Sequence record: PZ402305.1 | DNA from: a phage | Strand: one strand, 5' to 3' | DNA: 64,000 nucleotides | Shown here: positions 48,025 through 60,478 of the stretch, piece after piece | Numbering within the stretch: position 1 is the first letter of the stretch | How the letters are laid out: each line of letters starts with the position of its first letter | Notes under the pieces: generated by a model | Seen by the model: the letters and a program-made list of their open reading frames with translations, nothing else | Databases searched by the model: none | Told to the model about the DNA's origin: nothing | Program-made: the position numbers and the translations under genes

Positions 48025-48046
48025 CAAATGATAATGATTCGCATTT
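48025..48046. promoter_or_regulatory. Fur-box-like near-palindrome A
   Basis: caAATGATAATGATTCGCATTt; resembles GATAATGATAATCATTATC. Confidence 0.35.
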
Positions 48047-48083
48047 AGGTTTATAAATGAGATTGATTCTTATTCGATAAGGT

Positions 48084-48104
48084 AAATGATAATCATTCTC
48101 ATTT
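48084..48104. promoter_or_regulatory. Fur-box-like near-palindrome B
   Basis: AAATGATAATCATTCTCATTT; one mismatch to core TGATAATCATTATC; 21-bp quasi-palindrome. Confidence 0.4.
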
Positions 48105-48362
48105 AGAGAATGACGCGCAGGGGCGGTGTTTGTCTCGCGTTCCCGTGTCCCCTCGCCATGTAATAAGAATAACAGATCCAGCCAGGAAAGCAAGCGATTA
48201 TTTCATCTTTACATTTCTTTACAAATATATAGCGCCCAGCCTACCGGCGATCAACCTTCCAACCAGTGCCCCTGGTATGTTAGCCCCGCCTTTACGCCGT
48301 GGGGTGGCGCTTCCTCTTCTGTATGTAAAACAGTATAAGCCCGATCCCTGGGCTTGTCAAGA

Positions 48363-48629
48363 TTATTTTTTGTTTTCTTGCCAGGATAGGACACCTAACC
48401 AAAAATACATATCGCCCCGCGCCCCTGGCGGGATCTTGCTTTCCCCGCCGCCACTGCAAGCCCATAGATAACCATTTGCGAACGTATCAAAATGATCTAT
48501 CTCTTCCACCTTATGATCGCCCAGGTTGAGAACGGTTTCAACCTTTAAGCCCGTTGCGCTTGCTACCTGGTGCACCGTGCCGCCTTGCCAGCCCAATGAG
48601 TGCATAAGGTGTAATGTAGTAGTTGTCAT
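48363..48629 (-). CDS. hypothetical protein in GC-rich island
   Basis: 88 aa ORF with RBS-like aaagggcg upstream; distinct GC-rich codon usage; followed on minus strand by TTGACA-17-TATACT promoter at ~48318-48346. Confidence 0.3.
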   Translation of the reverse strand: MTTTTLHLMHSLGWQGGTVHQVASATGLKVETVLNLGDHKVEEIDHFDTFANGYLWACSGGGESKIPPGARGDMYFWLGVLSWQENKK

Positions 48630-48737
48630 GGTATCGCCCTTTCTTTGTTGTGCGCCCTGGTTGGCGCGGTAGAAAGATGATAGCCCTTTCCTTTATATAT
48701 AGCAAGCAAAAAGAAAATAAAAAGATTGAAAAAGTGG

Positions 48738-48797
48738 TTGACGTTCGCCAGGTGGCGGCATAATATTTACCACGTAGGGCGGCAATGGTGCCGCTCA
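48738..48797 (+). promoter_or_regulatory. early promoter P1 + 5' stem-loop
   Basis: TTGACG-17-TAATAT-ttac-CACGTAGGGCGGCAATGGTGCCGCTCA; stem GCGGCA/TGCCGC. Confidence 0.7.
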
Positions 48798-48815
48798 CTA
48801 TTTGGAGTTAAGATC

Positions 48816-49013
48816 ATGGCAACATTGCACATTGTGGCGAAAGCTGGACAAATCAACGTAATAGTAAACGGTTTTACTGAGTTCAGTCATCCCCAGGATG
48901 ATCATGAAACGGTTTTATCTTTCATTGATTCACTGTTAGAAATGGGAGTAATTACAGAAGATCAGCATACTGCAAAATGCAAGCGCGTTAAGCAGATTGC
49001 AGGAATAGAATAA
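48816..49013 (+). CDS. early small protein (65 aa)
   Basis: ORF track start 48726 lies upstream of promoter P1; ATG at 48816 follows RBS ggag. Confidence 0.55.
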   Translation: MATLHIVAKAGQINVIVNGFTEFSHPQDDHETVLSFIDSLLEMGVITEDQHTAKCKRVKQIAGIE

Positions 49014-49018
49014 AAGTC

Positions 49019-49076
49019 TTGACAACAAGCCACAACCTGATAAGATGTATCACATAGGGGCGACAAGCGCCCCGCC
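49019..49076 (+). promoter_or_regulatory. early promoter P2 + 5' stem-loop
   Basis: TTGACA-16-TAAGAT-gtat-CACATAGGGGCGACAAGCGCCCCGCC. Confidence 0.7.
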
Positions 49077-49097
49077 TAACAGAAGAGAGAAATCATC

Positions 49098-49370
49098 ATG
49101 GCATCATATAGCGCAACAATGATCGTAACTGGCACCACTGGTAAACCGATGAGCGGTGGCGGATCTTTCGCTAATATCAATATTGACGGGCGTTTATCCC
49201 TGGACGCAGCGATTGCCATTGCACGGGAAACATTTAAGAAAGAATGTAATTTCAACAAGCAAGATTATCTCGGTTTCGCTATTGAAAAAACCGCGCGCTT
49301 TGTTGATTATAAAAGCCCGAAAATGGTTGATACTACACTAAAAGCGCAAGATGTAGCGTTTTTGCTTTAA
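49098..49370 (+). CDS. early small protein (90 aa)
   Basis: RBS agaagagag; follows P2. Confidence 0.6.
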   Translation: MASYSATMIVTGTTGKPMSGGGSFANINIDGRLSLDAAIAIARETFKKECNFNKQDYLGFAIEKTARFVDYKSPKMVDTTLKAQDVAFLL

Positions 49371-49373
49371 GGC

Positions 49374-49429
49374 TTGACATTAACGAATAATTTGTTAATA
49401 TGTTACATAAAGCGGGAATAGTTCCCGCT
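49374..49429 (+). promoter_or_regulatory. early promoter P3 + 5' stem-loop
   Basis: TTGACA-17-TAATAT-gtt-ACATAAAGCGGGAATAGTTCCCGCT. Confidence 0.7.
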
Positions 49430-49446
49430 ATTTGTAAGGTGGTAGA

Positions 49447-49704
49447 ATGTTTTACATCAAATTAAAAGGTCACGTGATCGCGTTCAAAGATAACGCTTTT
49501 TACAGATTAGCAAAATATGCGTTAATACATCCCCACTATGTTTATATAAGGGGGCGTGACGAAATAAATATTTTTGATCAAACAACATGCGAAAACATCG
49601 AGATCCGCAAGGTTGGCGTACGTGATTATCGTACATCTTTCTACCCTTGCAAGGATTCAGCAAGTCTTTTTAAGGTATGTCAATTGTTGAAAAAAGGTGG
49701 TTAA
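49447..49704 (+). CDS. early small protein (85 aa)
   Basis: RBS aaggtgg; follows P3. Confidence 0.6.
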   Translation: MFYIKLKGHVIAFKDNAFYRLAKYALIHPHYVYIRGRDEINIFDQTTCENIEIRKVGVRDYRTSFYPCKDSASLFKVCQLLKKGG

Positions 49705-49705
49705 T

Positions 49706-50263
49706 ATGGGCCGCGAATATGTGATCCAGTCTTGGGTAAAACATGAAGCAGATGATCCGCGCATCATTCCCGATCATCTTATCGATGAATCCACGGGATA
49801 TAGCGGTGAGCAAATAGGTAGCAGATTAGCACGTAGTAACGGCAACGTAAAAGCGCGTTATGTGCGCCCTGGCTGGCTGGCAAATGGTAACGCTGATTTA
49901 TCCAGTGCGGAAGATGCGAGCGACGGCGCGAAAGATAATCCTTTGTACAAAGTTGATCCGGCTTTTCGTGTCCTGGATGAATACCCCAGCAAGATAGCGG
50001 CGCTCGATCAGGCCCTGGAAAGTAAGCGCATCACCTGGACCGCTTACAACATGGCAAAAAACGTACTTGATGGTAAATTGATTCAAGCTGAAAGAAAATT
50101 AGCCAAAATTGCAGCCATAGCCCAGGAGGAAGACGAGGAGACAACGGAAGAGGAAGAGTACGAAGAGATCCCGCCGTTGTTGTGCGTTGATGCTTTTCCT
50201 GATTATCAGCCGACAGAGGAAGAAAAAAGGATCGCACTAGAAAACTTTGAAAATAGTCTTTGA
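49706..50263 (+). CDS. early acidic protein (185 aa)
   Basis: ATG at 49706 after RBS aaaaggtgg (ORF track GTG 49697); C-terminal third strongly acidic (EEDEETTEEEEYEE). Confidence 0.55.
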   Translation: MGREYVIQSWVKHEADDPRIIPDHLIDESTGYSGEQIGSRLARSNGNVKARYVRPGWLANGNADLSSAEDASDGAKDNPLYKVDPAFRVLDEYPSKIAALDQALESKRITWTAYNMAKNVLDGKLIQAERKLAKIAAIAQEEDEETTEEEEYEEIPPLLCVDAFPDYQPTEEEKRIALENFENSL

Positions 50264-50319
50264 CATATCGCCGCCACTGGCATAATATTTACCACGTAGG
50301 GCGGCAATGGTGCCGCTCA
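50259..50319 (+). promoter_or_regulatory. early promoter P4 + 5' stem-loop
   Basis: TTGACA overlapping preceding stop; CATAAT -10; stem-loop identical to P1. Confidence 0.7.
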
Positions 50320-50345
50320 TAGTGAAATTATGCAAGAGGCTTACA

Positions 50346-50441
50346 ATGATTAATAAAGAAAATAGCTTGACGGTTGGAACGATTAACGCTATCATTTTCG
50401 CCGTTCCATTTTGGGTTGTATTAGCGGCTATTATTTTCTAA
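50346..50441 (+). CDS. early hydrophobic micro-protein (31 aa)
   Basis: Not in ORF track (<60 aa); ATG after agagg; MINKENSLTVGTINAIIFAVPFWVVLAAIIF is a single TM helix; sits between P4 and P5. Confidence 0.35.
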   Translation: MINKENSLTVGTINAIIFAVPFWVVLAAIIF

Positions 50442-50451
50442 AAAAATATTC

Positions 50452-50512
50452 TTGACAACGTTTTTTAATCTGATAAGATGTATCACATAGGGCGGCGGAA
50501 TACTTCCCCGCC
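50452..50512 (+). promoter_or_regulatory. early promoter P5 + 5' stem-loop
   Basis: TTGACA-16-TAAGAT-gtat-CACATAGGGCGGCGGAATACTTCCCCGCC. Confidence 0.7.
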
Positions 50513-50533
50513 AAAACAAAAAAGGGTAACACA

Positions 50534-50896
50534 ATGAGCAAGCAAATCAATACTATCATGTTTAATCTGGTATCTTTCCGCGATGATATGAAAAATTTAC
50601 CACGTGAAACGGTTGATATTCATGTTTCAGCTTATCGCGCCCTTATTGATATGTTACCGCTAAAACGTGATCAACATGCCGCTAATATGATGCTTAATGC
50701 TATGCTTAAAAAGATGATTCAAACGGATCTTACTCTGGCGTATGAGTATCAAGGGCGCTTATATGCTACTTACAACAAAGCGGTACCTGGTCTGGGAAGT
50801 ACCGAAGAGTTGCACGGCTTAAACCTGGATCAAAACACTTGGGATAGTATGCGCCGCGTTATGGTATGGGCCGAAAGCGGTAAAATTTACGAATAA
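50534..50896 (+). CDS. early small protein (120 aa)
   Basis: RBS aaaggg; follows P5. Confidence 0.6.
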   Translation: MSKQINTIMFNLVSFRDDMKNLPRETVDIHVSAYRALIDMLPLKRDQHAANMMLNAMLKKMIQTDLTLAYEYQGRLYATYNKAVPGLGSTEELHGLNLDQNTWDSMRRVMVWAESGKIYE

Positions 50897-50902
50897 AAAC
50901 GG

Positions 50903-50959
50903 TTGACACTGTTTAAAATTCTGGTATAGTTTATCACGTAGGGCGGCAATGGTGCCGCC
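50903..50959 (+). promoter_or_regulatory. early promoter P6 + 5' stem-loop
   Basis: TTGACA-17-TATAGT-ttat-CACGTAGGGCGGCAATGGTGCCGCC. Confidence 0.7.
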
Positions 50960-50979
50960 AATAATAAAAGGTTAACATC

Positions 50980-51159
50980 ATGGCTATCATTGCAAAAACT
51001 GAGATTATAGGTTTAGATTCGATCCTCCTGGCTTATGAGGAAACTTTAAAAATGTATGTAGTGACCTATGGTGATTATGTGCGTGAATACGAATACATTG
51101 ATCTTGCTTTCGAATGTTACATTCGCCAGGTCAATAAAGCCTATAACGATTATCGTTAA
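50980..51159 (+). CDS. early small protein (59 aa)
   Basis: Not in ORF track; RBS aaaagg; ATG at 50980 follows P6. Confidence 0.45.
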   Translation: MAIIAKTEIIGLDSILLAYEETLKMYVVTYGDYVREYEYIDLAFECYIRQVNKAYNDYR

Positions 51160-51178
51160 AAGTTTTAGTCTTATACTA

Positions 51179-51230
51179 TTGACAATGAGTGATAGTATAA
51201 GCATAATAACTTTTATCGGGAATACTTCCC
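51179..51230 (+). promoter_or_regulatory. early promoter P7 + 5' stem-loop
   Basis: TTGACA-...-CATAAT-...-CGGGAATACTTCCC. Confidence 0.6.
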
Positions 51231-51256
51231 ACTAACCAAAAAGAGAGAGTGACACC

Positions 51257-51622
51257 ATGGCTATTAATATCAATGTTTCCGTTTATGCTACCCTGGCTGA
51301 CACGGCTAAAATTGAATTATCCAGCATTGAGGCGGTGCATATTAGCGCCCGTCGCTGGTTTCAACAGTCCTACGGTAACACATATTTTTCTTTAATAGTT
51401 GACGTTGAGATCGGCGGTAAACTGATCGAGGTGGTTAACGTTCCGTTTCAATATGGCTATGGTGATCATTTTGATACCGTCGCCCTGGAAGAATTTAGCA
51501 AGGTTATCAACCTTGAGGGCAAGGAATTTTCACGCGGCGCGTATCTTTCCCGTTTTTGCCGTGACAATGGGATCACTGTATACAGTCATGCAAGCGATGT
51601 AAAACGTAAAAAAGATTTATAA
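51257..51622 (+). CDS. early small protein (121 aa)
   Basis: RBS aagagagag; follows P7. Confidence 0.6.
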   Translation: MAININVSVYATLADTAKIELSSIEAVHISARRWFQQSYGNTYFSLIVDVEIGGKLIEVVNVPFQYGYGDHFDTVALEEFSKVINLEGKEFSRGAYLSRFCRDNGITVYSHASDVKRKKDL

Positions 51623-51627
51623 AAGTA

Positions 51628-51690
51628 TTGACAGCACGAATAAAAAGAGTAAACTGTATTACATAGAGAGCGGGAACACTTCCCGCCTCA
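51628..51690 (+). promoter_or_regulatory. early promoter P8 + 5' stem-loop
   Basis: TTGACA-16-TAAACT-gtatt-ACATAGAGAGCGGGAACACTTCCCGCCTCA. Confidence 0.7.
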
Positions 51691-51710
51691 CTGAAAAAGA
51701 GAGAAAAATC

Positions 51711-51950
51711 ATGGCTAAATCTAAAATGTACAACGGTCACAAAAACAAAACTCATTGGAATGTAAGCCTTTGGATTAATAACGATGAATCATTATATCGG
51801 TTGGCGAAAGAATTTATCGCCGCTAATACTAATCGTAATGATGCTGCGCGGGATATGATGCTTTTTCTGGAACAAACTGGACAAGATAAAACGCCAGACG
51901 GTTTCAAATATAGCACTACTGCGATCCGCGCCGCGATGGTTGGAATGTAA
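51711..51950 (+). CDS. early small protein (79 aa)
   Basis: RBS aaagagag; follows P8. Confidence 0.6.
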   Translation: MAKSKMYNGHKNKTHWNVSLWINNDESLYRLAKEFIAANTNRNDAARDMMLFLEQTGQDKTPDGFKYSTTAIRAAMVGM

Positions 51951-51959
51951 TAAAAACAG

Positions 51960-52019
51960 TTGACAACGTTTAAAATTAGTGTAAGATGTATCACATAGGG
52001 CGGGAAGTGGTTTCCCGCC
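51960..52019 (+). promoter_or_regulatory. early promoter P9 + 5' stem-loop
   Basis: TTGACA-16-TAAGAT-gtat-CACATAGGGCGGGAAGTGGTTTCCCGCC. Confidence 0.7.
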
Positions 52020-52041
52020 AACAACAGAGAGATTAAAGATT

Positions 52042-52269
52042 ATGGCTATCAATATTGTTCGCGTATCCGGCACCGTTGGCACTTCCCAGGTTATTGCAGT
52101 TGTAACAAACAAAAAGATTAATGATGTATGTGAGATCTTGAATAAGTGGGCTATTGCTAATTTTGGGGAATATGCAAGCGTCGAGTACATCGAATCCTAC
52201 CAGGTGCCAACCATCAGCCTAACCGATCTCAACGTTGATCGCCTGTTATGCCTGGATGAATTAATCTGA
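52042..52269 (+). CDS. early small protein (75 aa)
   Basis: RBS agagag; follows P9. Confidence 0.6.
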   Translation: MAINIVRVSGTVGTSQVIAVVTNKKINDVCEILNKWAIANFGEYASVEYIESYQVPTISLTDLNVDRLLCLDELI

Positions 52270-52278
52270 AAAAGATTG

Positions 52279-52337
52279 TTGACACGGGAAAGAAAAAGAG
52301 TAAACTATATTACGTAGGGCGGCAATGGTGCCGCTCA
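52279..52337 (+). promoter_or_regulatory. early promoter P10 + 5' stem-loop
   Basis: TTGACA-16-TAAACT-atat-TACGTAGGGCGGCAATGGTGCCGCTCA. Confidence 0.7.
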
Positions 52338-52359
52338 CAACAGAAGAGAGATTATCACG

Positions 52360-52572
52360 ATGGCTAATATCCGCACACTGTTAAAAAATGCAAAACAAGT
52401 TTTATTTTCTGATCACAATCATTTTAATAAAGATATTACAGGCGTGAAGAATATCAAAGATGTAAAAAGTGTTATGGGTATATATTGCAATGTTAAACGT
52501 GTTGGAACGTTCGGTGACAAGGTATTGTATCAATCAGGTGATTACAATTTTACTTTGACGATTATTTCATAA
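52360..52572 (+). CDS. early small protein (70 aa)
   Basis: RBS agaagagag; follows P10. Confidence 0.6.
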   Translation: MANIRTLLKNAKQVLFSDHNHFNKDITGVKNIKDVKSVMGIYCNVKRVGTFGDKVLYQSGDYNFTLTIIS

Positions 52573-52577
52573 AACGC

Positions 52578-52638
52578 TTGCAATACTGCAAAAATAAAGT
52601 AAACTGTATTACATCAAGGCGGGGAATGGTCCACCGCC
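52578..52638 (+). promoter_or_regulatory. early promoter P11 + 5' stem-loop
   Basis: TTGCAA-...-TAAACT-gtatt-ACATCAAGGCGGGGAATGGTCCACCGCC. Confidence 0.65.
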
Positions 52639-52662
52639 TAACAAAGAGAAGAGGAAAACATC

Positions 52663-52830
52663 ATGATTACTTTTACTACCCGTGAAGCCGCTCGCAACGT
52701 TGCACGTAAAGTTAACGCCGCCAACCTGGGTGCTACGCTTAAAGCCCCTGTAAAAGATGAATCAGGCAAATGGATCTTCCCTGGTCTGCGTCATGCTGAC
52801 AAGTTAGGTACTTTAAGCCTTAAAAAATAA
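52663..52830 (+). CDS. early small basic protein (55 aa)
   Basis: Not in ORF track; RBS agaggaaaa; follows P11. Confidence 0.45.
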   Translation: MITFTTREAARNVARKVNAANLGATLKAPVKDESGKWIFPGLRHADKLGTLSLKK

Positions 52831-52833
52831 TCG

Positions 52834-52871
52834 TTGACTTTTCGTTATAGCGCCTTATAATGGGCGCTATA
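52834..52871 (+). promoter_or_regulatory. early promoter P12 with -10 embedded in palindrome
   Basis: TTGACT then TATAGCGCC-TTATAAT-GGGCGCTATA perfect inverted repeat enclosing the TATAAT hexamer. Confidence 0.55.
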
Positions 52872-52908
52872 GAGAAGAGAAACCAATCACCAGAAAGAGA
52901 GAAAGAAA

Positions 52909-53127
52909 ATGGCAATCCGTAAAATTAAAGTTGTTTGCATTGAATCAACTGGTGGCGCGTTTGTAGTTGGTCAGAAGTATAATGCGGTTTTAATGGGCGT
53001 GGATTGGAAGGTTAAAGGTCTTGACGGTTACGAATACGGCACTACTCGCGGCTTGCGTGGTCGAATCGGATACGTGAGCTTTGACAACAAAGAAAAATTT
53101 GTTTTCGATACTGTTATGAGTAAATAG
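52909..53127 (+). CDS. early small protein (72 aa)
   Basis: RBS agagagaaag; follows P12. Confidence 0.6.
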   Translation: MAIRKIKVVCIESTGGAFVVGQKYNAVLMGVDWKVKGLDGYEYGTTRGLRGRIGYVSFDNKEKFVFDTVMSK

Positions 53128-53200
53128 CACGAATTGCTAAAAACTAATCTGCGAATTGCTGTAATATCAACTAATCGAAACACATAAAGAGAAAAACATC

Positions 53201-53422
53201 ATGATCACTTTCGCTATTGTCACCGTTGTCGCTGGTCAAGTTTACGTAAATGAGACATTTACTACAGAAGACAAAGCAGCAGGAGATATAACCGCCGTTT
53301 ACAACGAGTGCAAGGCAGTAGAAAGGATGTTAGCGCCTTGTATGCTAATGAGTGAACGCCAGGACGGGATAACAGTGTTTAGCAACATTGAAACAGGGTA
53401 CCAAATGGTAGTAACAAAATAA
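53201..53422 (+). CDS. early small protein (73 aa)
   Basis: RBS aaagagaaa; upstream promoter less clear (TTGCTA / TGTAATAT), no stem-loop. Confidence 0.55.
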   Translation: MITFAIVTVVAGQVYVNETFTTEDKAAGDITAVYNECKAVERMLAPCMLMSERQDGITVFSNIETGYQMVVTK

Positions 53423-53425
53423 AAC

Positions 53426-53483
53426 TTGACACAGATTTAATTTTCAGTAAACTGTTACACATAGGGCGGGAATAGTTCCCGCT
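53426..53483 (+). promoter_or_regulatory. early promoter P13 + 5' stem-loop
   Basis: TTGACA-...-TAAACT-gtta-CACATAGGGCGGGAATAGTTCCCGCT. Confidence 0.7.
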
Positions 53484-53500
53484 AAAAAGAGAGAAAGACC

Positions 53501-53854
53501 ATGAAAGCACAAAATGCAATTAAAGAGTACATCCTTGCCGCTATCGATTTTAATGATTATGGTATTACAACCGAAAAAGAGAAGATCGCGGAATTGATGC
53601 GCCGTTTTAATTCCGAGTACTGGTACCCTGATAATCAATCACGTTTTAATTATAGTATTGTTAAAGCACTTGCATCATGGTTACAAGGTTTGCCATCAGA
53701 CATTAATATCGCTTTCGAATATTGGGAAATTGATCGTTTGTTAACATCCTGGGGATACATTAAAGAGAATAGCAGCGATGATAAAATCCAACGAGAAAGG
53801 GAAAATTATTGGCTTTATATTGCAGGCGTGATCCTTGCTTGCTCTTATGAATGA
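53501..53854 (+). CDS. early small protein (117 aa)
   Basis: RBS aagagagaaag; follows P13. Confidence 0.6.
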   Translation: MKAQNAIKEYILAAIDFNDYGITTEKEKIAELMRRFNSEYWYPDNQSRFNYSIVKALASWLQGLPSDINIAFEYWEIDRLLTSWGYIKENSSDDKIQRERENYWLYIAGVILACSYE

Positions 53855-53860
53855 TAAACC

Positions 53861-53917
53861 TTGACAATTTTACAAAACAGCTTAAATTAATAATATAGCG
53901 GCAATGGTGCCGCTCAT
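53861..53917 (+). promoter_or_regulatory. early promoter P14 + 5' stem-loop
   Basis: TTGACA-16-TTAAAT-taatat-AGCGGCAATGGTGCCGCTCA. Confidence 0.65.
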
Positions 53918-54614: not shown

Positions 54615-54668
54615 TCCTGTTTTATATTGTGTTATAGTTATCGTGTAGGGCGGCAATGGTGCCGCGCC
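54611..54668 (+). promoter_or_regulatory. early promoter P16 + 5' stem-loop
   Basis: TTGATC-...-TATAGT-tatc-GTGTAGGGCGGCAATGGTGCCGCGCC. Confidence 0.6.
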
Positions 54669-54685
54669 CCTTTGAGGATGCAATC

Positions 54686-54970: not shown

Positions 54971-54985
54971 AAATTTAGAAAAGGC

Positions 54986-55042
54986 TTGCAATAATTTTGA
55001 GATAGTGTATATTTAATTCATAGGGCGGCGGGAATAGTTCCC
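54986..55042 (+). promoter_or_regulatory. early promoter P17 + 5' stem-loop
   Basis: TTGCAA-...-TATATT-taat-TCATAGGGCGGCGGGAATAGTTCCC. Confidence 0.6.
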
Positions 55043-55065
55043 AAAGCAAACGAGAGGATTACACG

Positions 55066-55185
55066 ATGAGCAAGTACACAGTAGAATACACGGTAGAGAA
55101 TCCGGCAGTATCCGAAGGTAAAAAGATGACATTTGCCATCAGTATAATCGCTTTCGTTGTCACTATCTTATCAATCATCTTATAA
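55066..55185 (+). CDS. early hydrophobic micro-protein (39 aa)
   Basis: Not in ORF track; RBS gagagg; C-terminal TM helix FAISIIAFVVTILSIIL. Confidence 0.35.
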   Translation: MSKYTVEYTVENPAVSEGKKMTFAISIIAFVVTILSIIL

Positions 55186-55195
55186 GGTGCACACC

Positions 55196-55357
55196 ATGAA
55201 AATAACAGACATTATCAAAGAGATCGCCCTTGCCGCTGGCGTTGAAGTCGAGGAAGTGATCGCGCTCAATCTTACAGAAAACGATCTGCGCAACTATGAA
55301 GCGGAAAGCGTGAAAGCAAGCGGCGCGGTCCTGGTATATGATCCGGCTAACAAGTAA
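55196..55357 (+). CDS. early small protein (53 aa)
   Basis: ORF track start 55157; ATG at 55196 after taaggtg. Confidence 0.45.
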   Translation: MKITDIIKEIALAAGVEVEEVIALNLTENDLRNYEAESVKASGAVLVYDPANK

Positions 55358-55366
55358 GGGGATAAC

Positions 55367-55477
55367 ATGAATCCGAAAGATATGCAAGCATGGAAAGGGT
55401 ACGACGATCTAAGCGCCTTGCGCAATAAGTCAAGCCGTAACCTTAGACGGTTGGAAGCAAAGAAAAAGAAAAAATAG
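55367..55477 (+). CDS. early small basic protein (36 aa)
   Basis: Not in ORF track; RBS aagggga; ends in KKKKK. Confidence 0.3.
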   Translation: MNPKDMQAWKGYDDLSALRNKSSRNLRRLEAKKKKK

Positions 55478-55478
55478 T

Positions 55479-55537
55479 TTGACAAGTCCGCGTAGTCTGA
55501 TAATATGTATCTTGTAGGGCGGCAATGGTGCCGCTCA
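55479..55537 (+). promoter_or_regulatory. early promoter P18 + 5' stem-loop
   Basis: TTGACA-17-TAATAT-gtat-CTTGTAGGGCGGCAATGGTGCCGCTCA. Confidence 0.7.
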
Positions 55538-55555
55538 CAAGAAGAGAGAAAAATC

Positions 55556-55840
55556 ATGAAAATTACAAAAAGCCTAACTAATTATGCAGCACGTCGCGGA
55601 TTATGTTTAACCGTTGAAAACTTAGGGAAAGAAGACTTTTTGTGTTTTTGGGAGCTTGAAAATGATTGCGAGTGGATGTTTTCTTATTCTATCTGCGAAG
55701 ATCAAAACGGTTGTTTGTTAACCTGGCGCGGTAATATCTATTTACCGGAAGAAATCAAAGAGGAACTACCAGGCACGATCATGACTGAGAAACAGCTTAA
55801 GGAAGTGATCAATTTTGTAGGGCAAAACATTAAAAAATAA
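55556..55840 (+). CDS. early small protein (94 aa)
   Basis: ORF track start 55505 is inside promoter; ATG at 55556 after agaagagagaaaa. Confidence 0.55.
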   Translation: MKITKSLTNYAARRGLCLTVENLGKEDFLCFWELENDCEWMFSYSICEDQNGCLLTWRGNIYLPEEIKEELPGTIMTEKQLKEVINFVGQNIKK

Positions 55841-55841
55841 T

Positions 55842-55907
55842 TTGACAGTAGGCAAACAACGTAGTAAAGTTTATTACATAGAGCGGCGGAATGGTCCACC
55901 GCTCACA
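55842..55907 (+). promoter_or_regulatory. early promoter P19 + 5' stem-loop
   Basis: TTGACA-...-TAAAGT-ttatt-ACATAGAGCGGCGGAATGGTCCACCGCTCA. Confidence 0.65.
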
Positions 55908-55925
55908 ACAGAAGAGAAACAAATC

Positions 55926-56096
55926 ATGATCCCGACTATGTTTTATGTATCGCGCAAAGGTCACAATATTTTTTGGTCTGAAGATTTAAATGAAGCTATG
56001 ACGTTTGCCCGTAATCGTGTTGCTATCGGTGGCGTTAACATCACCGTAACCGATGAAAATGGCATTGAATACTATAACGGCGACGATGAAGAATAA
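55926..56096 (+). CDS. early small protein (56 aa)
   Basis: ORF track start 55842 overlaps promoter; ATG at 55926 after agaagagaaac. Confidence 0.5.
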   Translation: MIPTMFYVSRKGHNIFWSEDLNEAMTFARNRVAIGGVNITVTDENGIEYYNGDDEE

Positions 56097-56101
56097 TTAA
56101 T

Positions 56102-56128
56102 GAGGCGGGGGGAGTATTCCCCGCCGTC
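56102..56128 (+). promoter_or_regulatory. promoter-less GC stem-loop (terminator/processing-site candidate)
   Basis: GAGGCGGGGGGAGTATTCCCCGCCGTC hairpin of the same type as the 5' stem-loops but without upstream TTGACA. Confidence 0.4.
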
Positions 56129-56174
56129 AATATGGCGGGGCAATAAGGCAACGCCCATTAATGAGGGTAAAATC

Positions 56175-56279
56175 ATGTTAGAGAAAATTTTCACGGTTGC
56201 AGTGGTTGGCCTGGCGTTATCGGTTGGAGTGGTTGCAACTATGGCTAACATGATCCTATCTTCCCACGGTATCGGTTAA
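56175..56279 (+). CDS. early hydrophobic micro-protein (34 aa)
   Basis: Not in ORF track; RBS gagggtaaa; MLEKIFTVAVVGLALSVGVVATMANMIL is a TM helix. Confidence 0.35.
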   Translation: MLEKIFTVAVVGLALSVGVVATMANMILSSHGIG

Positions 56280-56289
56280 GGTGAAACAA

Positions 56290-56505
56290 ATGATCACGAA
56301 CAAAACAGGCAAAACGGAATTTTTACGCGGCTTACAAGTTGGTAAGCCTGAGATCTGGCATTGCACGAAGTCCGCGCATAATGAAATGAAAGATTTCACC
56401 GCTACTTTACAACGTGTTAAAATATCTATTACACAGAAAAAAGCCTTGTTAGTAGTAGAAAACGAGATCCCACAAACTATTATTATTGTCGAGCGTACAG
56501 CATGA
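56290..56505 (+). CDS. early small protein (71 aa)
   Basis: ATG at 56290 after taaggtg (ORF track GTG 56281). Confidence 0.5.
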   Translation: MITNKTGKTEFLRGLQVGKPEIWHCTKSAHNEMKDFTATLQRVKISITQKKALLVVENEIPQTIIIVERTA

Positions 56506-56888
56506 AAACAGAAATCATTATTGAAATCATCAACGGCTATAAAGAAGCTTTTATTTTTGCTGAATCAGCAAGGGATCATGAAGGTAATTTTATTGATAAC
56601 TTAGACGATTATGATTTTTCTCCTAGCGCGGACGAACGGATCGCCCAGGATGTAACAGCCTTTATTAATGCTAATCTTGCCGCTATCTCTGAGGCAATGA
56701 GCGACGGCGCAACAGCCAACCAGATCGGGAATGATTTACATTTTACCCGTAACAGTCACGGCGTAGGCTTTTGGGATCGCCCTGAAATATACACCACTAA
56801 CACGGCGAACCGCCTAACCAATGCAGCTAAGTTTATGCCGAACGTGTCGGCTTACATTGGTGAAGATAATTTGATTTATATTGAATAA
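56502..56888 (+). CDS. early protein (128 aa)
   Basis: 4-nt overlap with upstream gene. Confidence 0.55.
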   Translation: MKTEIIIEIINGYKEAFIFAESARDHEGNFIDNLDDYDFSPSADERIAQDVTAFINANLAAISEAMSDGATANQIGNDLHFTRNSHGVGFWDRPEIYTTNTANRLTNAAKFMPNVSAYIGEDNLIYIE

Positions 56889-56894
56889 AAAGTA

Positions 56895-56953
56895 TTGACA
56901 CAGATCGCCAGTGTGCTAATATTTACCACGTAGGGCGGCAATGGTGCCGCTCC
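56895..56953 (+). promoter_or_regulatory. early promoter P20 + 5' stem-loop
   Basis: TTGACA-17-TAATAT-ttac-CACGTAGGGCGGCAATGGTGCCGCTCC. Confidence 0.7.
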
Positions 56954-56971
56954 CCGAAAAAGGTAAACATT

Positions 56972-57163
56972 ATGGAAACCATCTCCTACCTGGAATCGAA
57001 TAACATGTTTTTTGCGCCCGTTGATGAAATCATCGAAGCATTAAACAACGAGGAAGGGATCAAAGGTTTATCTTATAGCCAACTTTTAGGAATGGTTGCA
57101 GCAAATGAAGAGCTTGCTTACTATGTTGAAAATTTTGATGAAGCTGTAATCTTTACAAAATAA
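56972..57163 (+). CDS. early small acidic protein (63 aa)
   Basis: RBS aaaaagg; follows P20. Confidence 0.55.
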   Translation: METISYLESNNMFFAPVDEIIEALNNEEGIKGLSYSQLLGMVAANEELAYYVENFDEAVIFTK

Positions 57164-57166
57164 TCC

Positions 57167-57223
57167 TTGATCTAATCTCTTAGATAACTTATATTTAATG
57201 CGTAGGGCGGCAATGGTGCCGCC
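57167..57223 (+). promoter_or_regulatory. early promoter P21 + 5' stem-loop
   Basis: TTGATC-...-TATATT-taa-TGCGTAGGGCGGCAATGGTGCCGCC. Confidence 0.6.
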
Positions 57224-57241
57224 GATAATGAGGAAAGTAAA

Positions 57242-57541
57242 ATGGAAACTATCGCTATTGTTACCGTAGAAAAACTGGTTGTTGGTGATGTATTCGCGTT
57301 AATGGTGCCTAACAGCAGCAAACTGGGCGCTTATGAAGTAATGGATCATAAAAATGAATCATTTGGCGACGGTTGCACAATGGCGGTAAAATCTTTAAAG
57401 GATGGAATCATCCGCCAGGCTAACTGGCACAAAGGGAATCAAGTCGGTTTAATATCAGCTAATTTCTTGCCAGAAGAGCAAACGTTAGACCAACTATCAG
57501 GCGGTAAGACGTTAGCCGAGCTACTGGAAACAGCGATCTAA
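57242..57541 (+). CDS. early small protein (99 aa)
   Basis: RBS gaggaaag; follows P21. Confidence 0.6.
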   Translation: METIAIVTVEKLVVGDVFALMVPNSSKLGAYEVMDHKNESFGDGCTMAVKSLKDGIIRQANWHKGNQVGLISANFLPEEQTLDQLSGGKTLAELLETAI

Positions 57542-57549
57542 TCAACAAA

Positions 57550-57565
57550 GGGGCGGCAACGCCCC
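57550..57565 (+). promoter_or_regulatory. promoter-less GC stem-loop
   Basis: GGGGCGgcaaCGCCCC perfect hairpin between genes, no T-run. Confidence 0.4.
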
Positions 57566-57585
57566 ACATCAGAAAGGAAAAGATT

Positions 57586-57822
57586 ATGAGTATTGCAACA
57601 GTATTAAACGCCGTTAAAACCGCTGAATCATCCGGCTTGCATGTTGAGCTTATAGATCAACCAGGTGGCGATCTCCTTGTCCAGGTTTACCCGCCGAAAG
57701 TAGGGGATGATCATTATTGGTGCTATTCTGATACGTTCGAACAAGTAGACACGAAAGCGATCACGGCTTTTATTTTAAAAGCTATTGAAGAAAATAACTT
57801 TCATTATAACATCAATCAATAA
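57586..57822 (+). CDS. early small protein (78 aa)
   Basis: RBS aaaggaaaag. Confidence 0.55.
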   Translation: MSIATVLNAVKTAESSGLHVELIDQPGGDLLVQVYPPKVGDDHYWCYSDTFEQVDTKAITAFILKAIEENNFHYNINQ

Positions 57823-57879
57823 ACTTTAAGCAGGGGGCGGTAACGCCCTATTAAACGCAATAGGAAGAGGATAGAAAGC

Positions 57880-58170
57880 ATGAAAAAGATGATCGCAGTA
57901 GTTGCCCTGGTTGTTGGTATTAACGCGCCTGTAATGGCTAATGATTTGCCTGAATCCATCGCGTTAACCGATATCAACGCGGTAAACCGGATCGGCGTTA
58001 ATTATCGCCTATGCCTTGCCGCTAAAACTTTCCAGGACGGCACGACAGAATACCACGGATTCGAGGGTGTCCGGTGCGGTGAGCTTGCACGCGACCTTAA
58101 GGAAGATCCAGACCTTGAGGCCATACCGATGACCGTAAACGGTAAAGCTTACGTAAACCGCCAACAATGA
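57880..58170 (+). CDS. early secreted small protein (96 aa)
   Basis: Signal peptide MKKMIAVVALVVGINAPVMA; RBS aggaagagg. Confidence 0.55.
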   Translation: MKKMIAVVALVVGINAPVMANDLPESIALTDINAVNRIGVNYRLCLAAKTFQDGTTEYHGFEGVRCGELARDLKEDPDLEAIPMTVNGKAYVNRQQ

Positions 58171-58181
58171 GAAAGGTAATC

Positions 58182-58409
58182 ATGACAATGGGGATCATAG
58201 TAGCAACGCTGGCGCTGATCCCCTTCCTGGTTGAATATGTGCTGATTAGTGTTGTCCTGGTAGTCAGTGACTTATTGGAAACGGTTGGCACCTGGGAGCA
58301 GGGGAAGATAATCACCGGACGACCCCGCTATATATTGATAGCTAACATCTATCAAACAACAAAACATCAAAGAGATAAACTATCAAATCTTTACAATCCT
58401 ACCTATTGA
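58182..58409 (+). CDS. early small membrane protein (75 aa)
   Basis: ATG at 58182 after gagaaagg (ORF track 58167); two hydrophobic helices. Confidence 0.45.
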   Translation: MTMGIIVATLALIPFLVEYVLISVVLVVSDLLETVGTWEQGKIITGRPRYILIANIYQTTKHQRDKLSNLYNPTY

Positions 58410-58464
58410 CACCGGATCACGCTTACATTATCATTTATCACGTAGGGCGGGAATGTTTCCCGCC
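58406..58464 (+). promoter_or_regulatory. early promoter P22 + 5' stem-loop
   Basis: TTGACA-...-CATTAT-...-CACGTAGGGCGGGAATGTTTCCCGCC. Confidence 0.65.
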
Positions 58465-58482
58465 TGATTTAGGAGTCATATC

Positions 58483-58716
58483 ATGATCGAACAAATTAAA
58501 AGCACTAAACCAAATGTTAACGGTAATGTTTCTCACTTTATCGGGGATAATGAAAGAGGTACACCGTACGCCGCCGTAACCGTTCAACCGAACGGGGATT
58601 ATTGGTTTACCGTGTACGGATCTTACTCTTTTGGACGTTCGGCACATGATAAGATCTTGCAAGTGGTTAAGCCTACTGGGAAGAATATCACAGCAGAAAA
58701 ATTTTATAAAAAATAA
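58483..58716 (+). CDS. early small protein (77 aa)
   Basis: RBS taggag; follows P22. Confidence 0.6.
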   Translation: MIEQIKSTKPNVNGNVSHFIGDNERGTPYAAVTVQPNGDYWFTVYGSYSFGRSAHDKILQVVKPTGKNITAEKFYKK

Positions 58717-58727
58717 CTTGCTTTATA

Positions 58728-58777
58728 GCTCCTGTTAACTTATAGTTATTGCGTAGGGCGAGCAATACAGCAAGCCC
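58728..58777 (+). promoter_or_regulatory. early promoter P23 + variant 5' stem-loop
   Basis: TTGCTT-...-TATAGT-tatt-GCGTAGGGCGAGCAATACAGCAAGCCC. Confidence 0.5.
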
Positions 58778-58794
58778 ACAAAGAGGAAAAGAAG

Positions 58795-59163
58795 ATGAGC
58801 AAATCAGCAATTAAAGCACTTGAAAAAGCACAAGAAGTGATCGCAACGTCAACCACTGGCGCAAAGGTTAATCTCGTTGGTTATCTGACAGATGAAACTA
58901 TCCGTAAAAATTGGCGTAATGCTGATTTACTGGCTTGCTTATTGATTAATAGTGTCGCTAATGCTTTCCAGTGTGAAACAGCCGAGAGCCTGGAGGAAAA
59001 CTTGTTTGATAATATGGATCAAGCCATTGAAACCTATATACAATCAAACATGGATAGCTGGAACAGTAAAACATGGCCCGACAATTTACGCGATACAACT
59101 GATCAACTGATCCGCCTTGCCTTGATGGTTGAACGCGATAACGTTCACAACCGCACAAAGTAA
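58795..59163 (+). CDS. early protein (122 aa)
   Basis: RBS aagaggaaaag; last gene of block. Confidence 0.6.
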   Translation: MSKSAIKALEKAQEVIATSTTGAKVNLVGYLTDETIRKNWRNADLLACLLINSVANAFQCETAESLEENLFDNMDQAIETYIQSNMDSWNSKTWPDNLRDTTDQLIRLALMVERDNVHNRTK

Positions 59164-59171
59164 GATTATAC

Positions 59172-59200
59172 AAGGGGCGCACCAAGCGCCCTTTCTTTTT
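59172..59200 (+). terminator. rho-independent terminator (copy 2)
   Basis: aaGGGGCGCaccaaGCGCCCtttcttttt; same core as 54087-54114. Confidence 0.8.
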
Positions 59201-60273
59201 GCCCGAATAATGTTGATAGATTCCGCCTATGGAAAACCGACACAGAACAAAACTGAATAAATAGCGGTATCGAGCTAATCAACCATTAAACGAATAACCA
59301 TACCTCCCAGGGTAACAGGCTGTTAGAGAGCCATTTAGAGCGGTTAAAATCGATCAACAACCAACAAAAAACCATCAAAAACACCCTTTTACCTCCTTTC
59401 TAGTGCAATGATAACCATTATCATCTATCCATGTTTATCTATGCAATATAAGTGCATAACTATAATGTTGATAATAGTTCGCAACAACTAACTAACCAAC
59501 AACCTAAAACAATAAGCAAACTAATCATAATCAAAGGAATAATAGCAAGATGATTGATAACGACAAACAATCAAACCATGATGAATACTAAGCAAGATAA
59601 CGATAACACGACAAAACAACCAACTAACGAACAATAACAAACGAAACCATTAAAATAATAACTATTAGCAAAATAGTGCCTGAATGAAATCATTACAAAA
59701 CGAATCATTCACAGGATCATCATTAGCACGCTATGCCGGACACATAGCGAGCTAATAATAAGCCAACTACACCCCAACAATCATAACCATCGGTGATGGT
59801 TATTTCTTGTTACTGCGTAGCTTGCAATAATTGCAAGCGTAATACGCTTACACTTATTGCGCTGGCTTATTATTAGCATTATATGTAATTACCAAGATCA
59901 TAACATTAGCGCAATAACAATAATCATTGTGGTAATTACAAGATGAAATAATCGCTATCGCTCAAAGATCATTAGCAAGATGAATAATTGCACGTAGCAA
60001 CATGAGCGAATAGCGACAGGTTGCATAGTGTGCACATAGATGTACACGTAGTGTATAAACATACAGGAAAATAAAGGCTAATCTTTTGGGGGCGAATACT
60101 ATCGCGTAGCGATATGTTGAGCACTAAGAGAAGAGATAAACCTTAATCATGGGGGCGTAAATATCCGCAGGATTGCCAACGGCGATCCGGTAGGATGTTG
60201 AGCATCTTCTCTTAAACGTAAATAAAATCAGAAAATTCTTGATTTATTTTAGTTTTTATGTTAATAAACGTTT

Positions 60274-60295
60274 AAATAATAATCATTCTCATATG
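60274..60295. promoter_or_regulatory. Fur-box-like near-palindrome C
   Basis: AAATAATAATCATTCTCATATG; shares ATAATCATTCTCAT core with box B at 48084. Confidence 0.35.
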
Positions 60296-60452
60296 AATAA
60301 TAGTCTGCTTGTCATGAGCGGGATCAGTTGACAATGTTCCGTCATATGATGAAGTTGCCAAACCATTGATAAATAAGTGTTTGTGTGATTTATAATCAAG
60401 TGGCCCACCTTGTCGCTATGTTGGCATGAGCCTTGCATAAGTCATTGAATAC

Positions 60453-60478
60453 GAATGATAATTATTCTCATTCGCATG
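60453..60478. promoter_or_regulatory. Fur-box-like near-palindrome D
   Basis: GAATGATAATTATTCTCATTCGCATG; shares GATAAT..ATTCGCAT with box A at 48025. Confidence 0.35.

What the first reader, a model, noticed from the sequence alone, without database searches (positions are those of the whole stretch)
48025..60478. Four Fur-box-like near-palindromes flank the early gene block
AAATGATAATCATTCTCATTT (48084), AAATGATAATGATTCGCATTT (48025), AAATAATAATCATTCTCATATG (60274) and GAATGATAATTATTCTCATTCGCATG (60453) each differ at only one to three positions from the enterobacterial Fur box GATAATGATAATCATTATC, and they also resemble one another. They lie in the non-coding regions just upstream of the two small-gene blocks starting at 48.8 and 60.8 kb. 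They may tie early phage transcription to host iron status, titrate Fur, or be operators for a phage-encoded regulator.
Basis: partly seen in the sequence, partly recalled or inferred. Interest (0 to 1): 0.55.

Follow-up and report, generated by a model that had tools for sequence, protein, structure and literature searches.

The report
Host Fur-repressor sites at phage genome ends
A virulent E. coli phage carries clusters of near-perfect binding sites for the host's iron-sensing repressor Fur in its terminal repeat and in one non-coding region, and T5 and other large phages carry the same arrays, which suggests an undescribed way for phages to use the host iron sensor.

Summary
The window is a Phapecoctavirus (phAPEC8-like myovirus, about 151 kb). 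It holds eight Fur-type boxes, not four: an array of four at an exact 29-bp period (47998, 48027, 48056, 48085), two at 59407 and 59654, and two at 60275 and 60454. The last two lie inside the 328-bp direct terminal repeat (60201-60528), so they sit at both physical genome ends.

I built a matrix de novo from 13 E. coli Fur-repressed promoters. The phage boxes score 17.6-27.3 bits. The best host sites score 11-25 bits, and the rest of the genome stays at or below 15.2 bits. Shuffles give 0.35 sites of at least 17 bits against 10 observed.

The boxes are conserved islands in relatives that are 70% identical. Similar arrays occur in Justusliebigvirus, Mydovirus and many uncultivated viral contigs. 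In T5 they are the unexplained DRC repeats and palindromes next to nick 1 and the injection stop region.

No phage Fur homologue or shared candidate binder was found, so host Fe2+-Fur is the likely ligand. What occupancy does is unresolved: roadblock or operator, Fur sink, or terminal architecture. No paper in the searched library links Fur boxes to virulent phage genomes.

The parts
47998..48016 (.). Fur-type box A1 of the 29-bp-phased array (AATGAGAAGAGTTCTCATA)
   Evidence: 17.6 bits with the host-derived matrix. Copy 1 of repeat family D1.
48021..48045 (.). Box A2 (AATGATAATGATTCGCATT at 48027) with an overlapping site 6 bp upstream at 48021
   Evidence: 24.2 and 18.1 bits. The 6-bp overlap is typical of operators that bind more than one Fur dimer (Chen 2007).
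48056..48074 (.). Box A3 (AATGAGATTGATTCTTATT)
   Evidence: 19.7 bits. 29 bp from A2.
48085..48103 (.). Box A4 (AATGATAATCATTCTCATT), one base from a perfect 9-1-9 palindrome
   Evidence: 26.9 bits, above every host training site. An identical box sits at the equivalent place in Mydovirus KPP-1 and in several IMG/VR contigs.
48092..48114 (-). Hairpin TCATTCTC/GAGAATGA that overlaps the right half of box A4. It is terminator-like on the minus strand.
   Evidence: A comparable inverted repeat is present in KPP-1, L060 and Justusliebigvirus.
59407..59425 (.). Fur-type box (AATGATAACCATTATCATC) in the 1-kb non-coding stretch before the right terminal repeat
   Evidence: 20.9 bits. Invariant in BI-EHEC and in the divergent phiWec179/188.
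59654..59672 (.). Weaker Fur-type box (AATAATAACTATTAGCAAA)
   Evidence: 18.0 bits. Member of repeat family D2.
60201..60528 (.). Direct terminal repeat (328 bp), the physical genome ends
   Evidence: Records of Schickermooser, BI-EHEC, Mt1B1_P17, WPEC1/2 and 10C3 start or end exactly here. The right end of BI-EHEC stops at window 60528. Korf 2019 (PMC6563267) reports a 328-bp terminal repeat for Schickermooser.
60275..60293 (.). Terminal-repeat box 1 (AATAATAATCATTCTCATA), 74 bp from the left end
   Evidence: 23.0 bits. 18/19 identical to the ryhB Fur box. A conserved island in the 70%-identical phiWec179/188 repeat.
60448..60472 (.). Terminal-repeat box 2 (AATGATAATTATTCTCATT at 60454) with an overlapping site at 60448. 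It ends 56 bp from the right end of the repeat.
   Evidence: 27.3 and 17.2 bits. phiWec179/188 keep it with one extra GATAAT hexamer. It lies 179 bp from box 1 in all three phages.
47776..47990 (.). AT-rich repeat units (TATTTAAAGTTTTT ... AAAATGAAAGT) immediately left of the array
   Evidence: D2-D5. Also present in Justusliebigvirus.
48230..48330 (.). Conserved GC-rich element with the invariant 18-mer CTACCGGCGATCAACCTT at 48241, 146-157 bp right of the last box
   Evidence: Compensatory changes occur in two hairpins. No Rfam family matches.
48332..48360 (-). Minus-strand sigma-70 promoter TTGACA-17-TATACT pointing at the GC-rich element and the array
   Evidence: 11/12 match. Conserved as TTGCAA-17-TATATT in KPP-1 and TTGACA-17-TATTCT in L060 (read directly from the sequence).
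60732..60760 (+). Conserved sigma-70 promoter TTGTAA-17-TATGAT ahead of the first left-end gene (60814). It lies outside the terminal repeat and no box overlaps it.

Best explanation
The boxes are high-affinity operators for the host ferric uptake regulator (Fe2+-Fur). No phage-encoded binder is indicated.

The phage concentrates them at three non-coding places: inside the 328-bp terminal repeat (so at both ends of the injected DNA), about 0.6-0.8 kb before the right repeat, and as a close-packed array of four sites at a 29-bp period, 12 kb from the right end. That array lies between an upstream operon terminator and a conserved minus-strand promoter and GC-rich element.

Inferred mechanism: in an iron-replete cell, Fur dimers occupy these sites as soon as the DNA enters. 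A period of 29 bp is about one Fur footprint per box, and the 6-bp-shifted secondary sites allow two dimers on some boxes. The resulting nucleoprotein blocks act as iron-dependent operators or roadblocks. They would limit transcription that starts in or runs through the terminal regions, for example the minus-strand transcript aimed at the 48.0-kb array and any promoters in the repeat. In iron-starved cells apo-Fur releases the sites.

Shown: the sequences, their statistics, their conservation, their terminal location, and the absence of a phage Fur. Inferred: Fur occupancy. Speculative: the roadblock or operator consequence.
For: A matrix learned only from host Fur promoters scores the phage boxes at 17.6-27.3 bits, against 11-25 bits for the best host sites. 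All other DNA in the roughly 151-kb genome scores 15.2 bits or less.

The boxes have features particular to Fur operators:
- the 7-1-7 core;
- overlapping sites in 6-bp register;
- gain of one GATAAT hexamer as the only change in box 2 between lineages;
- the ATTCTC half-site also used by ryhB, fhuA and exbB.

Conservation: both terminal-repeat boxes and the 59407 box are invariant islands in phages only 70% identical across the repeat.

The same arrays occur in unrelated phages that share the host clade but no candidate binder:
- Justusliebigvirus and Mydovirus;
- T5-like phages;
- IMG/VR contigs of 21-53% GC, where the boxes stand out as AT islands.

No Fur homologue was found in these phage groups. 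T5 pre-early proteins, including A2, have no homologue here. The neighbouring 88-aa ORF is absent from T5-likes.

A minus-strand promoter conserved across genera points at the array, and a terminator-like hairpin overlaps the last box.
Against: No binding data exist. The boxes do not overlap the one promoter that is supported by conservation (60732-60760). Candidate promoters that do overlap boxes are weak and not clearly conserved.

In T5 the equivalent boxes lie after the last annotated pre-early terminators and away from the annotated promoters. That fits a structural or sink role at least as well as an operator role.

These phages grow on iron-replete laboratory media, so Fur occupancy cannot be strongly inhibitory. 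The phage boxes use G at half-site position 4 (TGAGAAT) more often than host sites do (about half against 23%).
Confidence: 0.5

Rival explanations
1. Fur sink. The arrays exist mainly to sequester Fur. About a dozen very strong sites per genome, multiplied by replication, would out-compete chromosomal operators. This is the principle of the FURTA titration assay (my own knowledge: Stojiljkovic 1994; Fur is present at roughly 5,000-10,000 molecules per cell). The result would be derepression of the Fur regulon, or use of Fur titration as a genome-copy-number timer for phage promoters.
For: Sites are many and stronger than host sites, and they lie in non-coding DNA without consistent promoter overlap. 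Box number and spacing vary freely between lineages, from 1 to 8 or more boxes, as expected if dose matters more than geometry. Placement in the terminal repeat doubles the dose.
Against: T5 degrades host DNA early (my own knowledge; also the abstract listed), so derepressing host genes cannot be the benefit there. The recurrent 29-bp spacing, the fixed 179-bp spacing in the repeat and the fixed distance to the GC-rich element suggest that geometry matters.
Confidence: 0.2
2. Terminal architecture. Fur, or merely the palindromes, serves as an accessory factor for DNA-end transactions, in the way IHF serves lambda terminase at cosB. Candidate transactions are terminase cutting at the repeat boundaries, end pairing or concatemer formation, DNA entry (the T5 first-step-transfer stop), or origin function.
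For: The boxes lie 56-255 bp from the repeat boundaries. In T5 they lie inside the terminal repeat, 30-190 bp from major nick 1 at 7.9%, next to DnaA boxes and iteron-like DRD repeats. In 42 whole IMG/VR contigs, 14 boxes lie within 350 bp of a contig end against 4.5 expected (KS p = 0.004). The two repeat boxes are 17.0 helical turns apart.
Against: The strongest array (48.0 kb) is 12 kb from any terminus. The contig-end enrichment is confounded by assembly breaks at repeats. There are no DnaA boxes near the arrays in this phage. No evidence exists for two-step injection in this family.
Confidence: 0.2
3. Operators of a phage-encoded regulator whose specificity merely resembles, or mimics, that of Fur.
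For: The phage consensus (AATGAKAAT-N-ATTMTCATT) favours G at one half-site position more than host sites do. The early regions are full of small proteins of unknown function.
Against: No Fur-family gene occurs in any phapecoctavirus, T5-like or Vequintavirinae record. The array-bearing lineages are unrelated and share no detectable candidate. A host-only matrix scores the boxes at the very top of its range across all 19 positions.
Confidence: 0.08
4. Chance matches in AT-rich non-coding DNA.
For: The regions are AT-rich (29-36% GC), and the Fur consensus is AT-rich.
Against: Shuffles of those same segments give 0.02-0.03 sites of at least 17 bits, against 5 observed in each, and no shuffle reaches the observed maximum. 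The boxes are conserved islands. The same arrays occur in contigs of 47-53% GC.
Confidence: 0.01

Closest known systems
Chromosomal Fur operators of E. coli (for example ryhB, fhuA, fhuF, fepB-entC)
   Same: They share the 19-bp palindrome AATGATAAT-N-ATTATCATT with its 7-1-7 core, the 6-bp overlapping secondary sites and the score range. The ryhB box is 18/19 identical to terminal-repeat box 1.
   Different: Host operators overlap the -35/-10 of an iron-repressed promoter and extend as contiguous hexamers. The phage sites are discrete boxes repeated at 29 bp or more, in non-coding terminal regions of a virulent phage, with no demonstrated promoter overlap.
Phage T5 Repeat Region 3: direct repeats DRC1-4 and palindromes E, G, H, I beside the injection stop signal and nick 1 (GenBank AY587007 annotation; Davison, bioRxiv 10.1101/866236)
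   Same: The box sequence is the same (T5 sites at 9473, 9577 and 9612 score 22.0, 26.9 and 21.8 bits). The arrangement is the same: an array, then a GC-rich hairpin. Both lie in a non-coding terminal region of a large virulent enterobacterial phage.
   Different: In T5 the array lies in a 10-kb terminal repeat next to paired DnaA boxes and DRD repeats. Here the repeat is 328 bp, no DnaA boxes are present, and the largest array is outside the repeat. The T5 preprint calls the function impossible to guess and never mentions Fur or iron.
Fur boxes at cargo-gene promoters of temperate phages (sitABCD in lambdoid phages, PMC6969025; stx1, from my own knowledge)
   Same: Phage-borne DNA that is read by host Fur.
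   Different: Those are single operators on the promoter of an iron-related cargo gene in a prophage. Here multiple arrays sit in a virulent phage with no iron-related gene adjacent.
Host-factor sites at phage DNA ends (IHF site I1 in lambda cosB; my own knowledge)
   Same: A binding site for an abundant host DNA-binding protein lies within a few hundred bp of the terminase cut site.
   Different: The protein differs. No evidence exists that Fur bends DNA for a terminase. There is also an array 12 kb from the ends.

Membership tests
Fur box (Fe2+-Fur operator, Enterobacterales) | 7-1-7 inverted repeat TGATAAT-N-ATTATCA with few mismatches | tested here: met
   Five boxes have 1-2 mismatches. 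The window has 6 hits against 0.77 expected.
Fur box (Fe2+-Fur operator, Enterobacterales) | Score within the range of genuine operators under a matrix derived from Fur-repressed host promoters | tested here: met
   The boxes score 17.6-27.3 bits against 11.4-24.7 for host sites. The background scores 15.2 bits or less.
Fur box (Fe2+-Fur operator, Enterobacterales) | Overlapping secondary sites spaced by 6 bp (multi-dimer operators; Chen 2007, PMC2189734) | tested here: met
   Site pairs 48021/48027, 60448/60454 and (weaker) 48079/48085. A hexamer-unit indel occurs in phiWec.
Fur box (Fe2+-Fur operator, Enterobacterales) | Overlaps the -35/-10 or +1 of a sigma-70 promoter that iron represses | tested here: inconclusive
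   Only weak candidate promoters overlap the boxes. The conserved promoter at 60732-60760 is not overlapped.
Fur box (Fe2+-Fur operator, Enterobacterales) | Metal-dependent binding by Fur in vitro or in vivo | not testable with these tools
   Needs EMSA, footprinting, FURTA or ChIP.
T5 Repeat Region 3 DRC/palindrome array | Same repeat sequence | tested here: met
   82% identity over 55 bp spanning two boxes. T5 and pork27 boxes score 22-27 bits.
T5 Repeat Region 3 DRC/palindrome array | Located inside the terminal repeat near its inner boundary | tested here: inconclusive
   True for boxes 60275 and 60454. Not true for the four-box array at 48.0 kb.
T5 Repeat Region 3 DRC/palindrome array | Flanked by paired DnaA boxes | tested here: not met
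   No TTWTNCACA occurs within 5 kb of any array. The window has 5 hits against 10.6 expected.
Fur-regulated phage cargo gene (sit, stx1 type) | Single box on the promoter of an iron-related cargo gene of a temperate phage | tested here: not met
   The phage is virulent. Adjacent ORFs are small proteins of unknown function.
Operator array of a phage-encoded repressor | A cognate phage DNA-binding protein co-distributed with the sites | tested here: not met
   No Fur homologue was found. No protein is shared between T5-likes and this phage. Remote or novel binders are not excluded.
Host-factor site for terminase (lambda cosB type) | Host-protein site within a few hundred bp of the cut site and required for cutting | not testable with these tools
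   The distance criterion is met (56-255 bp). The requirement for cutting is untested.

The most novel reading that the evidence does not exclude
Arrays of consensus-grade Fur boxes form a widespread, previously unrecognised class of cis-element in large virulent phages. They occur in Stephanstirmvirinae, Vequintavirinae, T5-like Demerecviridae and many uncultivated lineages from 41 kb to 345 kb. They are placed at or near genome termini. Through them the phage co-opts the host iron sensor as a structural or regulatory component of DNA entry, early transcription or end processing. This would also identify the long-unexplained DRC repeats and palindromes beside the T5 injection stop signal as Fur sites.
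Probability: 0.45. Interest if true: 0.8.

Novelty: new variant of a known kind. Interest (0 to 1): 0.68.

Why it matters
Fur boxes are textbook elements of bacterial iron regulons, and they are known on a few prophage cargo genes. Phased arrays of sites stronger than any chromosomal operator are not described in the literature I could search. That holds in particular for arrays in the terminal repeats and non-coding hub regions of unrelated virulent phages.

If Fur binds them, iron status would feed directly into the earliest steps of infection by phages that are used in therapy cocktails (phAPEC8-like, rV5-like and T5-like). Iron is strongly limited at infection sites.

The finding also gives a concrete, cheap test for the function of the conserved T5 repeat region next to the injection stop signal: a fur-deleted host, iron chelation, or box-scrambled phage. 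Davison's analysis called that function impossible to guess.

Tried and rejected
- Rfam scan of 47.0-61.5 kb at E <= 1: only one sub-threshold chance hit.
- ARAGORN: no tRNA or tmRNA in the window.
- DnaA boxes near the arrays, as in T5: none.
- Phage-encoded Fur (tblastn of E. coli Fur against 50,697 phage records): hits only in unrelated records, and none in these phage groups.
- Shared binder: the 88-aa ORF beside the array has no Pfam family and is absent from T5-likes. T5 pre-early proteins have no homologue here.
- Zur, ArgR and DeoR operators, compared by eye: spacing or half-sites do not fit, and Fur fits far better (reasoning from known consensus sequences).
- Structured-RNA reading of the GC-rich element next to the array: RNAalifold found no compensatory pairs in its own consensus, and MFE z-scores are weak on both strands. 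Hand inspection does show compensatory changes in two hairpins, so I left this unexplained.
- Chen 2007 site lists were not available as text, so I derived the matrix from K-12 promoters.
- IMG/VR contig L022 (53% GC, five-box array) has no relative among GenBank phages.
- PHROGs on ten neighbouring proteins: all of unknown function.

Full report
**Identity of the window.** Megablast places both regions in Phapecoctavirus (phAPEC8-like myoviruses, Stephanstirmvirinae, about 150 kb, E. coli hosts) at 96-98% identity.

**The observation.** The four quoted sequences are present at 48026, 48084, 60274 and 60453.
- Against the 7-1-7 core TGATAAT-N-ATTATCA they have 1-2 mismatches. The window has six such matches against 0.77 expected.
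- Repeat finding, run with no reference to Fur, shows that the 48.0-kb cluster is an array of four boxes at an exact 29-bp period (47998, 48027, 48056, 48085).
- It also shows that 59407 and 59654 belong to the same family as 60275 and 60454.

**A Fur matrix from the host.** No published site list was available as text. I therefore fetched 13 classical Fur-repressed promoter regions of E. coli K-12: fepA/fes, fepD/entS, fepB/entC, fhuA, fecA, fecI, cirA, fiu, tonB, exbB, ryhB, fhuE and fhuF. I ran a palindromic EM on them.

From random seeds the most informative motif is AATGATAATaATTATCATT. This is the single-dimer "M9" frame of Chen et al. 2007, and it is exactly the frame of the phage boxes.

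| Sequence set | Score with the matrix |
|---|---|
| Best site per host promoter | 11.4-24.7 bits (leave-one-out median 18.9) |
| Phage boxes | 17.6, 24.2, 19.7, 26.9, 20.9, 18.0, 23.0, 27.3 bits |
| 6-bp-shifted secondary sites | 18.1 bits (48021), 17.2 bits (60448) |
| Rest of the window | 14.7 bits or less |

Controls:
- Dinucleotide shuffles of the window give 0.35 sites of at least 17 bits, against 10 observed.
- Shuffles restricted to the two AT-rich non-coding segments give 0.02-0.03 sites, against 5 observed in each.
- 54 kb of E. coli non-promoter DNA has no site of 15 bits or more.

The ryhB operator AATAATAATCATTCTCATT differs from box 60275 at one position. The fhuA, ryhB and exbB operators use the same ATTCTC half-site.

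**Where the boxes sit in the genome.**
- Several GenBank records start or end at window 60201, and the right end of BI-EHEC stops at window 60528.
- Schickermooser, whose 328-bp terminal repeat was reported by Korf et al. 2019 (PMC6563267), matches 60201-60528 at its positions 1-328.
- Boxes 60275 and 60454 are therefore inside the direct terminal repeat and present at both physical ends, 56-255 bp from the boundaries.
- I scanned BI-EHEC positions 1-100,000, which with the window covers the whole genome. It has no further site of 17 bits or more, and one of 15.2 bits.

The genome therefore carries Fur-type sites at only three non-coding places: the terminal repeat, the 1-kb non-coding stretch before the right repeat, and the array at 48.0 kb.

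**Conservation.**
- phiWec179 and phiWec188 are only about 70% identical across the repeat. Both repeat boxes are invariant islands in diverged flanks.
- Box 2 differs only by insertion of one GATAAT hexamer, and a 179-bp box-to-box distance is kept.
- The 59407 box is also invariant.
- The only promoter that conservation supports is TTGTAA-17-TATGAT at 60732-60760. It lies outside the repeat and no box overlaps it.

**The same arrays occur in other phages.** A sensitive blastn search with the array hits 361 phage records.
- Justusliebigvirus PHB05 and alia have five boxes (18-27 bits).
- The Vequintavirinae phage KPP-1 has two boxes 29 bp apart.
- T5-like phages have three to five boxes plus overlapping sites.
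- In T5 itself the sites at 9473, 9577 and 9612 (22.0, 26.9 and 21.8 bits) coincide with the annotated direct repeats C1-C4 and palindromes E, G and I. They lie inside the left terminal repeat, 30-190 bp from "major nick 1, 7.9%".
- Davison's analysis of this region beside the injection stop signal says the function of these repeats is impossible to guess. It never mentions Fur or iron.

An exact-pattern scan of IMG/VR returned more than 120 contigs. In 40 of 120 loci there are three or more distinct sites of at least 17 bits. These include contigs of 47-53% GC, where the boxes are isolated AT islands, and contigs of 41 kb to 345 kb. The commonest neighbour spacing is 29 bp. In 42 whole contigs the boxes are enriched near contig ends (14 within 350 bp against 4.5 expected). 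Assembly breaks at repeats confound this result.

**Who binds.**
- tblastn with E. coli Fur finds no homologue in any phapecoctavirus, T5-like or Vequintavirinae record.
- The 88-aa ORF beside the array is restricted to Stephanstirmvirinae and a few relatives.
- T5 pre-early proteins, including the DNA-binding protein A2, have no homologue in this genome.

The array-bearing lineages share a host clade but no detectable candidate binder. A matrix derived only from the host scores the boxes at the top of its range. Host Fe2+-Fur is therefore the most economical ligand. This is an inference, and no binding data exist.

**What occupancy does.** This is not settled. I consider three readings.

1. 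Iron-dependent operator or roadblock.
   - For: a minus-strand sigma-70 promoter conserved across genera (48360-48332, and its equivalents in KPP-1 and L060) points at the 48.0-kb array.
   - For: a terminator-like hairpin overlaps the last box.
   - For: the array sits between an upstream operon terminator and the terminal block of small genes.
2. Fur sink.
   - For: the sites are numerous and stronger than host sites.
   - For: their number varies between lineages, and the terminal repeat duplicates them.
   - Against: T5 destroys host DNA early, which argues against host-gene derepression as the benefit.
3. Terminal architecture (packaging, end pairing, entry or origin).
   - For: the sites are close to the termini, and in T5 they are close to nick 1 and the DnaA boxes.
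   - Against: the largest array here is 12 kb from an end.
   - Against: there are no DnaA boxes near the arrays in this phage.

**Literature.** Full-text searches found Fur boxes on prophage cargo genes (sitABCD; PMC6969025). They found nothing linking Fur boxes to virulent phage genomes, T5 or terminal repeats.

**Verdict.** The finding is real, highly non-random, conserved and in an unusual context. The element type is known. Its deployment as arrays at the termini of virulent phages appears to be new.

Noticed in passing
window 48230-48330 (anchor 48241-48258); also L018, L020, L021, L060, L135, L145-L162: An invariant 18-mer CTACCGGCGATC(A/C)ACCTT is followed by a variable hairpin and a second stem. 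Both show compensatory changes (for example CAACCAG/CTGGTATG to CGACCTGG/CCGGTACG, and GCCCC/GGGGT to GCCAG/CTGGT or GCCAA/TTGGT). The element is conserved across Stephanstirmvirinae, Mydovirus and contigs of 115-149 kb. A 5-nt indel in a loop argues against coding. No Rfam family matches, and folding z-scores are weak. In 16 of 23 contigs the last Fur box lies 146-157 bp (once 198 bp) to its left, and 7 contigs have no box there.
   Followed up: partly
window 48332-48360, minus strand: A near-consensus sigma-70 promoter (TTGACA-17-TATACT) sits just after the stop codon of the 88-aa ORF. It is conserved in KPP-1 (TTGCAA-17-TATATT) and L060 (TTGACA-17-TATTCT). It would drive a minus-strand transcript of about 230 nt through the GC-rich element towards the Fur array.
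   Followed up: partly
window 48363-48629, minus strand: An 88-aa ORF (possibly 78 aa from an internal start) is conserved in 151 phage records. It has no Pfam family and is absent from T5-like phages.
   Followed up: partly
window 47776-47990: AT-rich repeat units at 138-bp and 46-48-bp spacing (TATTTAAAGTTTTT ... AAAATGAAAGT) lie between an operon terminator and the Fur array. They are also present in Justusliebigvirus. They could be a DNA unwinding or iteron region, or phage-specific promoters.
   Followed up: no
window 59200-60200: A 1-kb non-coding stretch before the right terminal repeat has strong strand asymmetry (AT skew +0.24, GC skew -0.18). It contains many short repeats (ATCATTAGCA, GATAAC, CAACAA) and several inverted repeats. 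Part of it varies between strains.
   Followed up: no
window 60195-60245 and 60505-60535: Sequence across both terminal-repeat boundaries is conserved in phages 70% identical elsewhere (ATGTTGAGCA..TTCTC|TTAAACGT and AAAATTCGCGTT|AAGCA). These are candidate terminase recognition or cut sites.
   Followed up: partly
L144 (T5 AY587007) 9473-9668: The T5 Fur-type boxes end about 30 bp before annotated major nick 1 (7.9%). The window has CCCCTGCGCG on the minus strand at 48112-48122, which resembles the T5 nick context GCCCTGCGC. This is not conserved in KPP-1 or L060 and is probably coincidence.
   Followed up: no
L076 1-100; L022 5650-5990; L045 2330-2780: Uncultivated viral contigs carry striking arrays. 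One has a run of (ATGAGA)n hexamers at a contig start. One 53%-GC contig has five boxes at 39-45-bp spacing and no GenBank phage relative. One 21%-GC contig has eight or more boxes within 400 bp.
   Followed up: partly
(GenBank records): Several near-identical phapecoctavirus records are labelled as Campylobacter, Acinetobacter, Pseudomonas or Klebsiella phages. These are probably host mis-attributions or contaminants.
   Followed up: no
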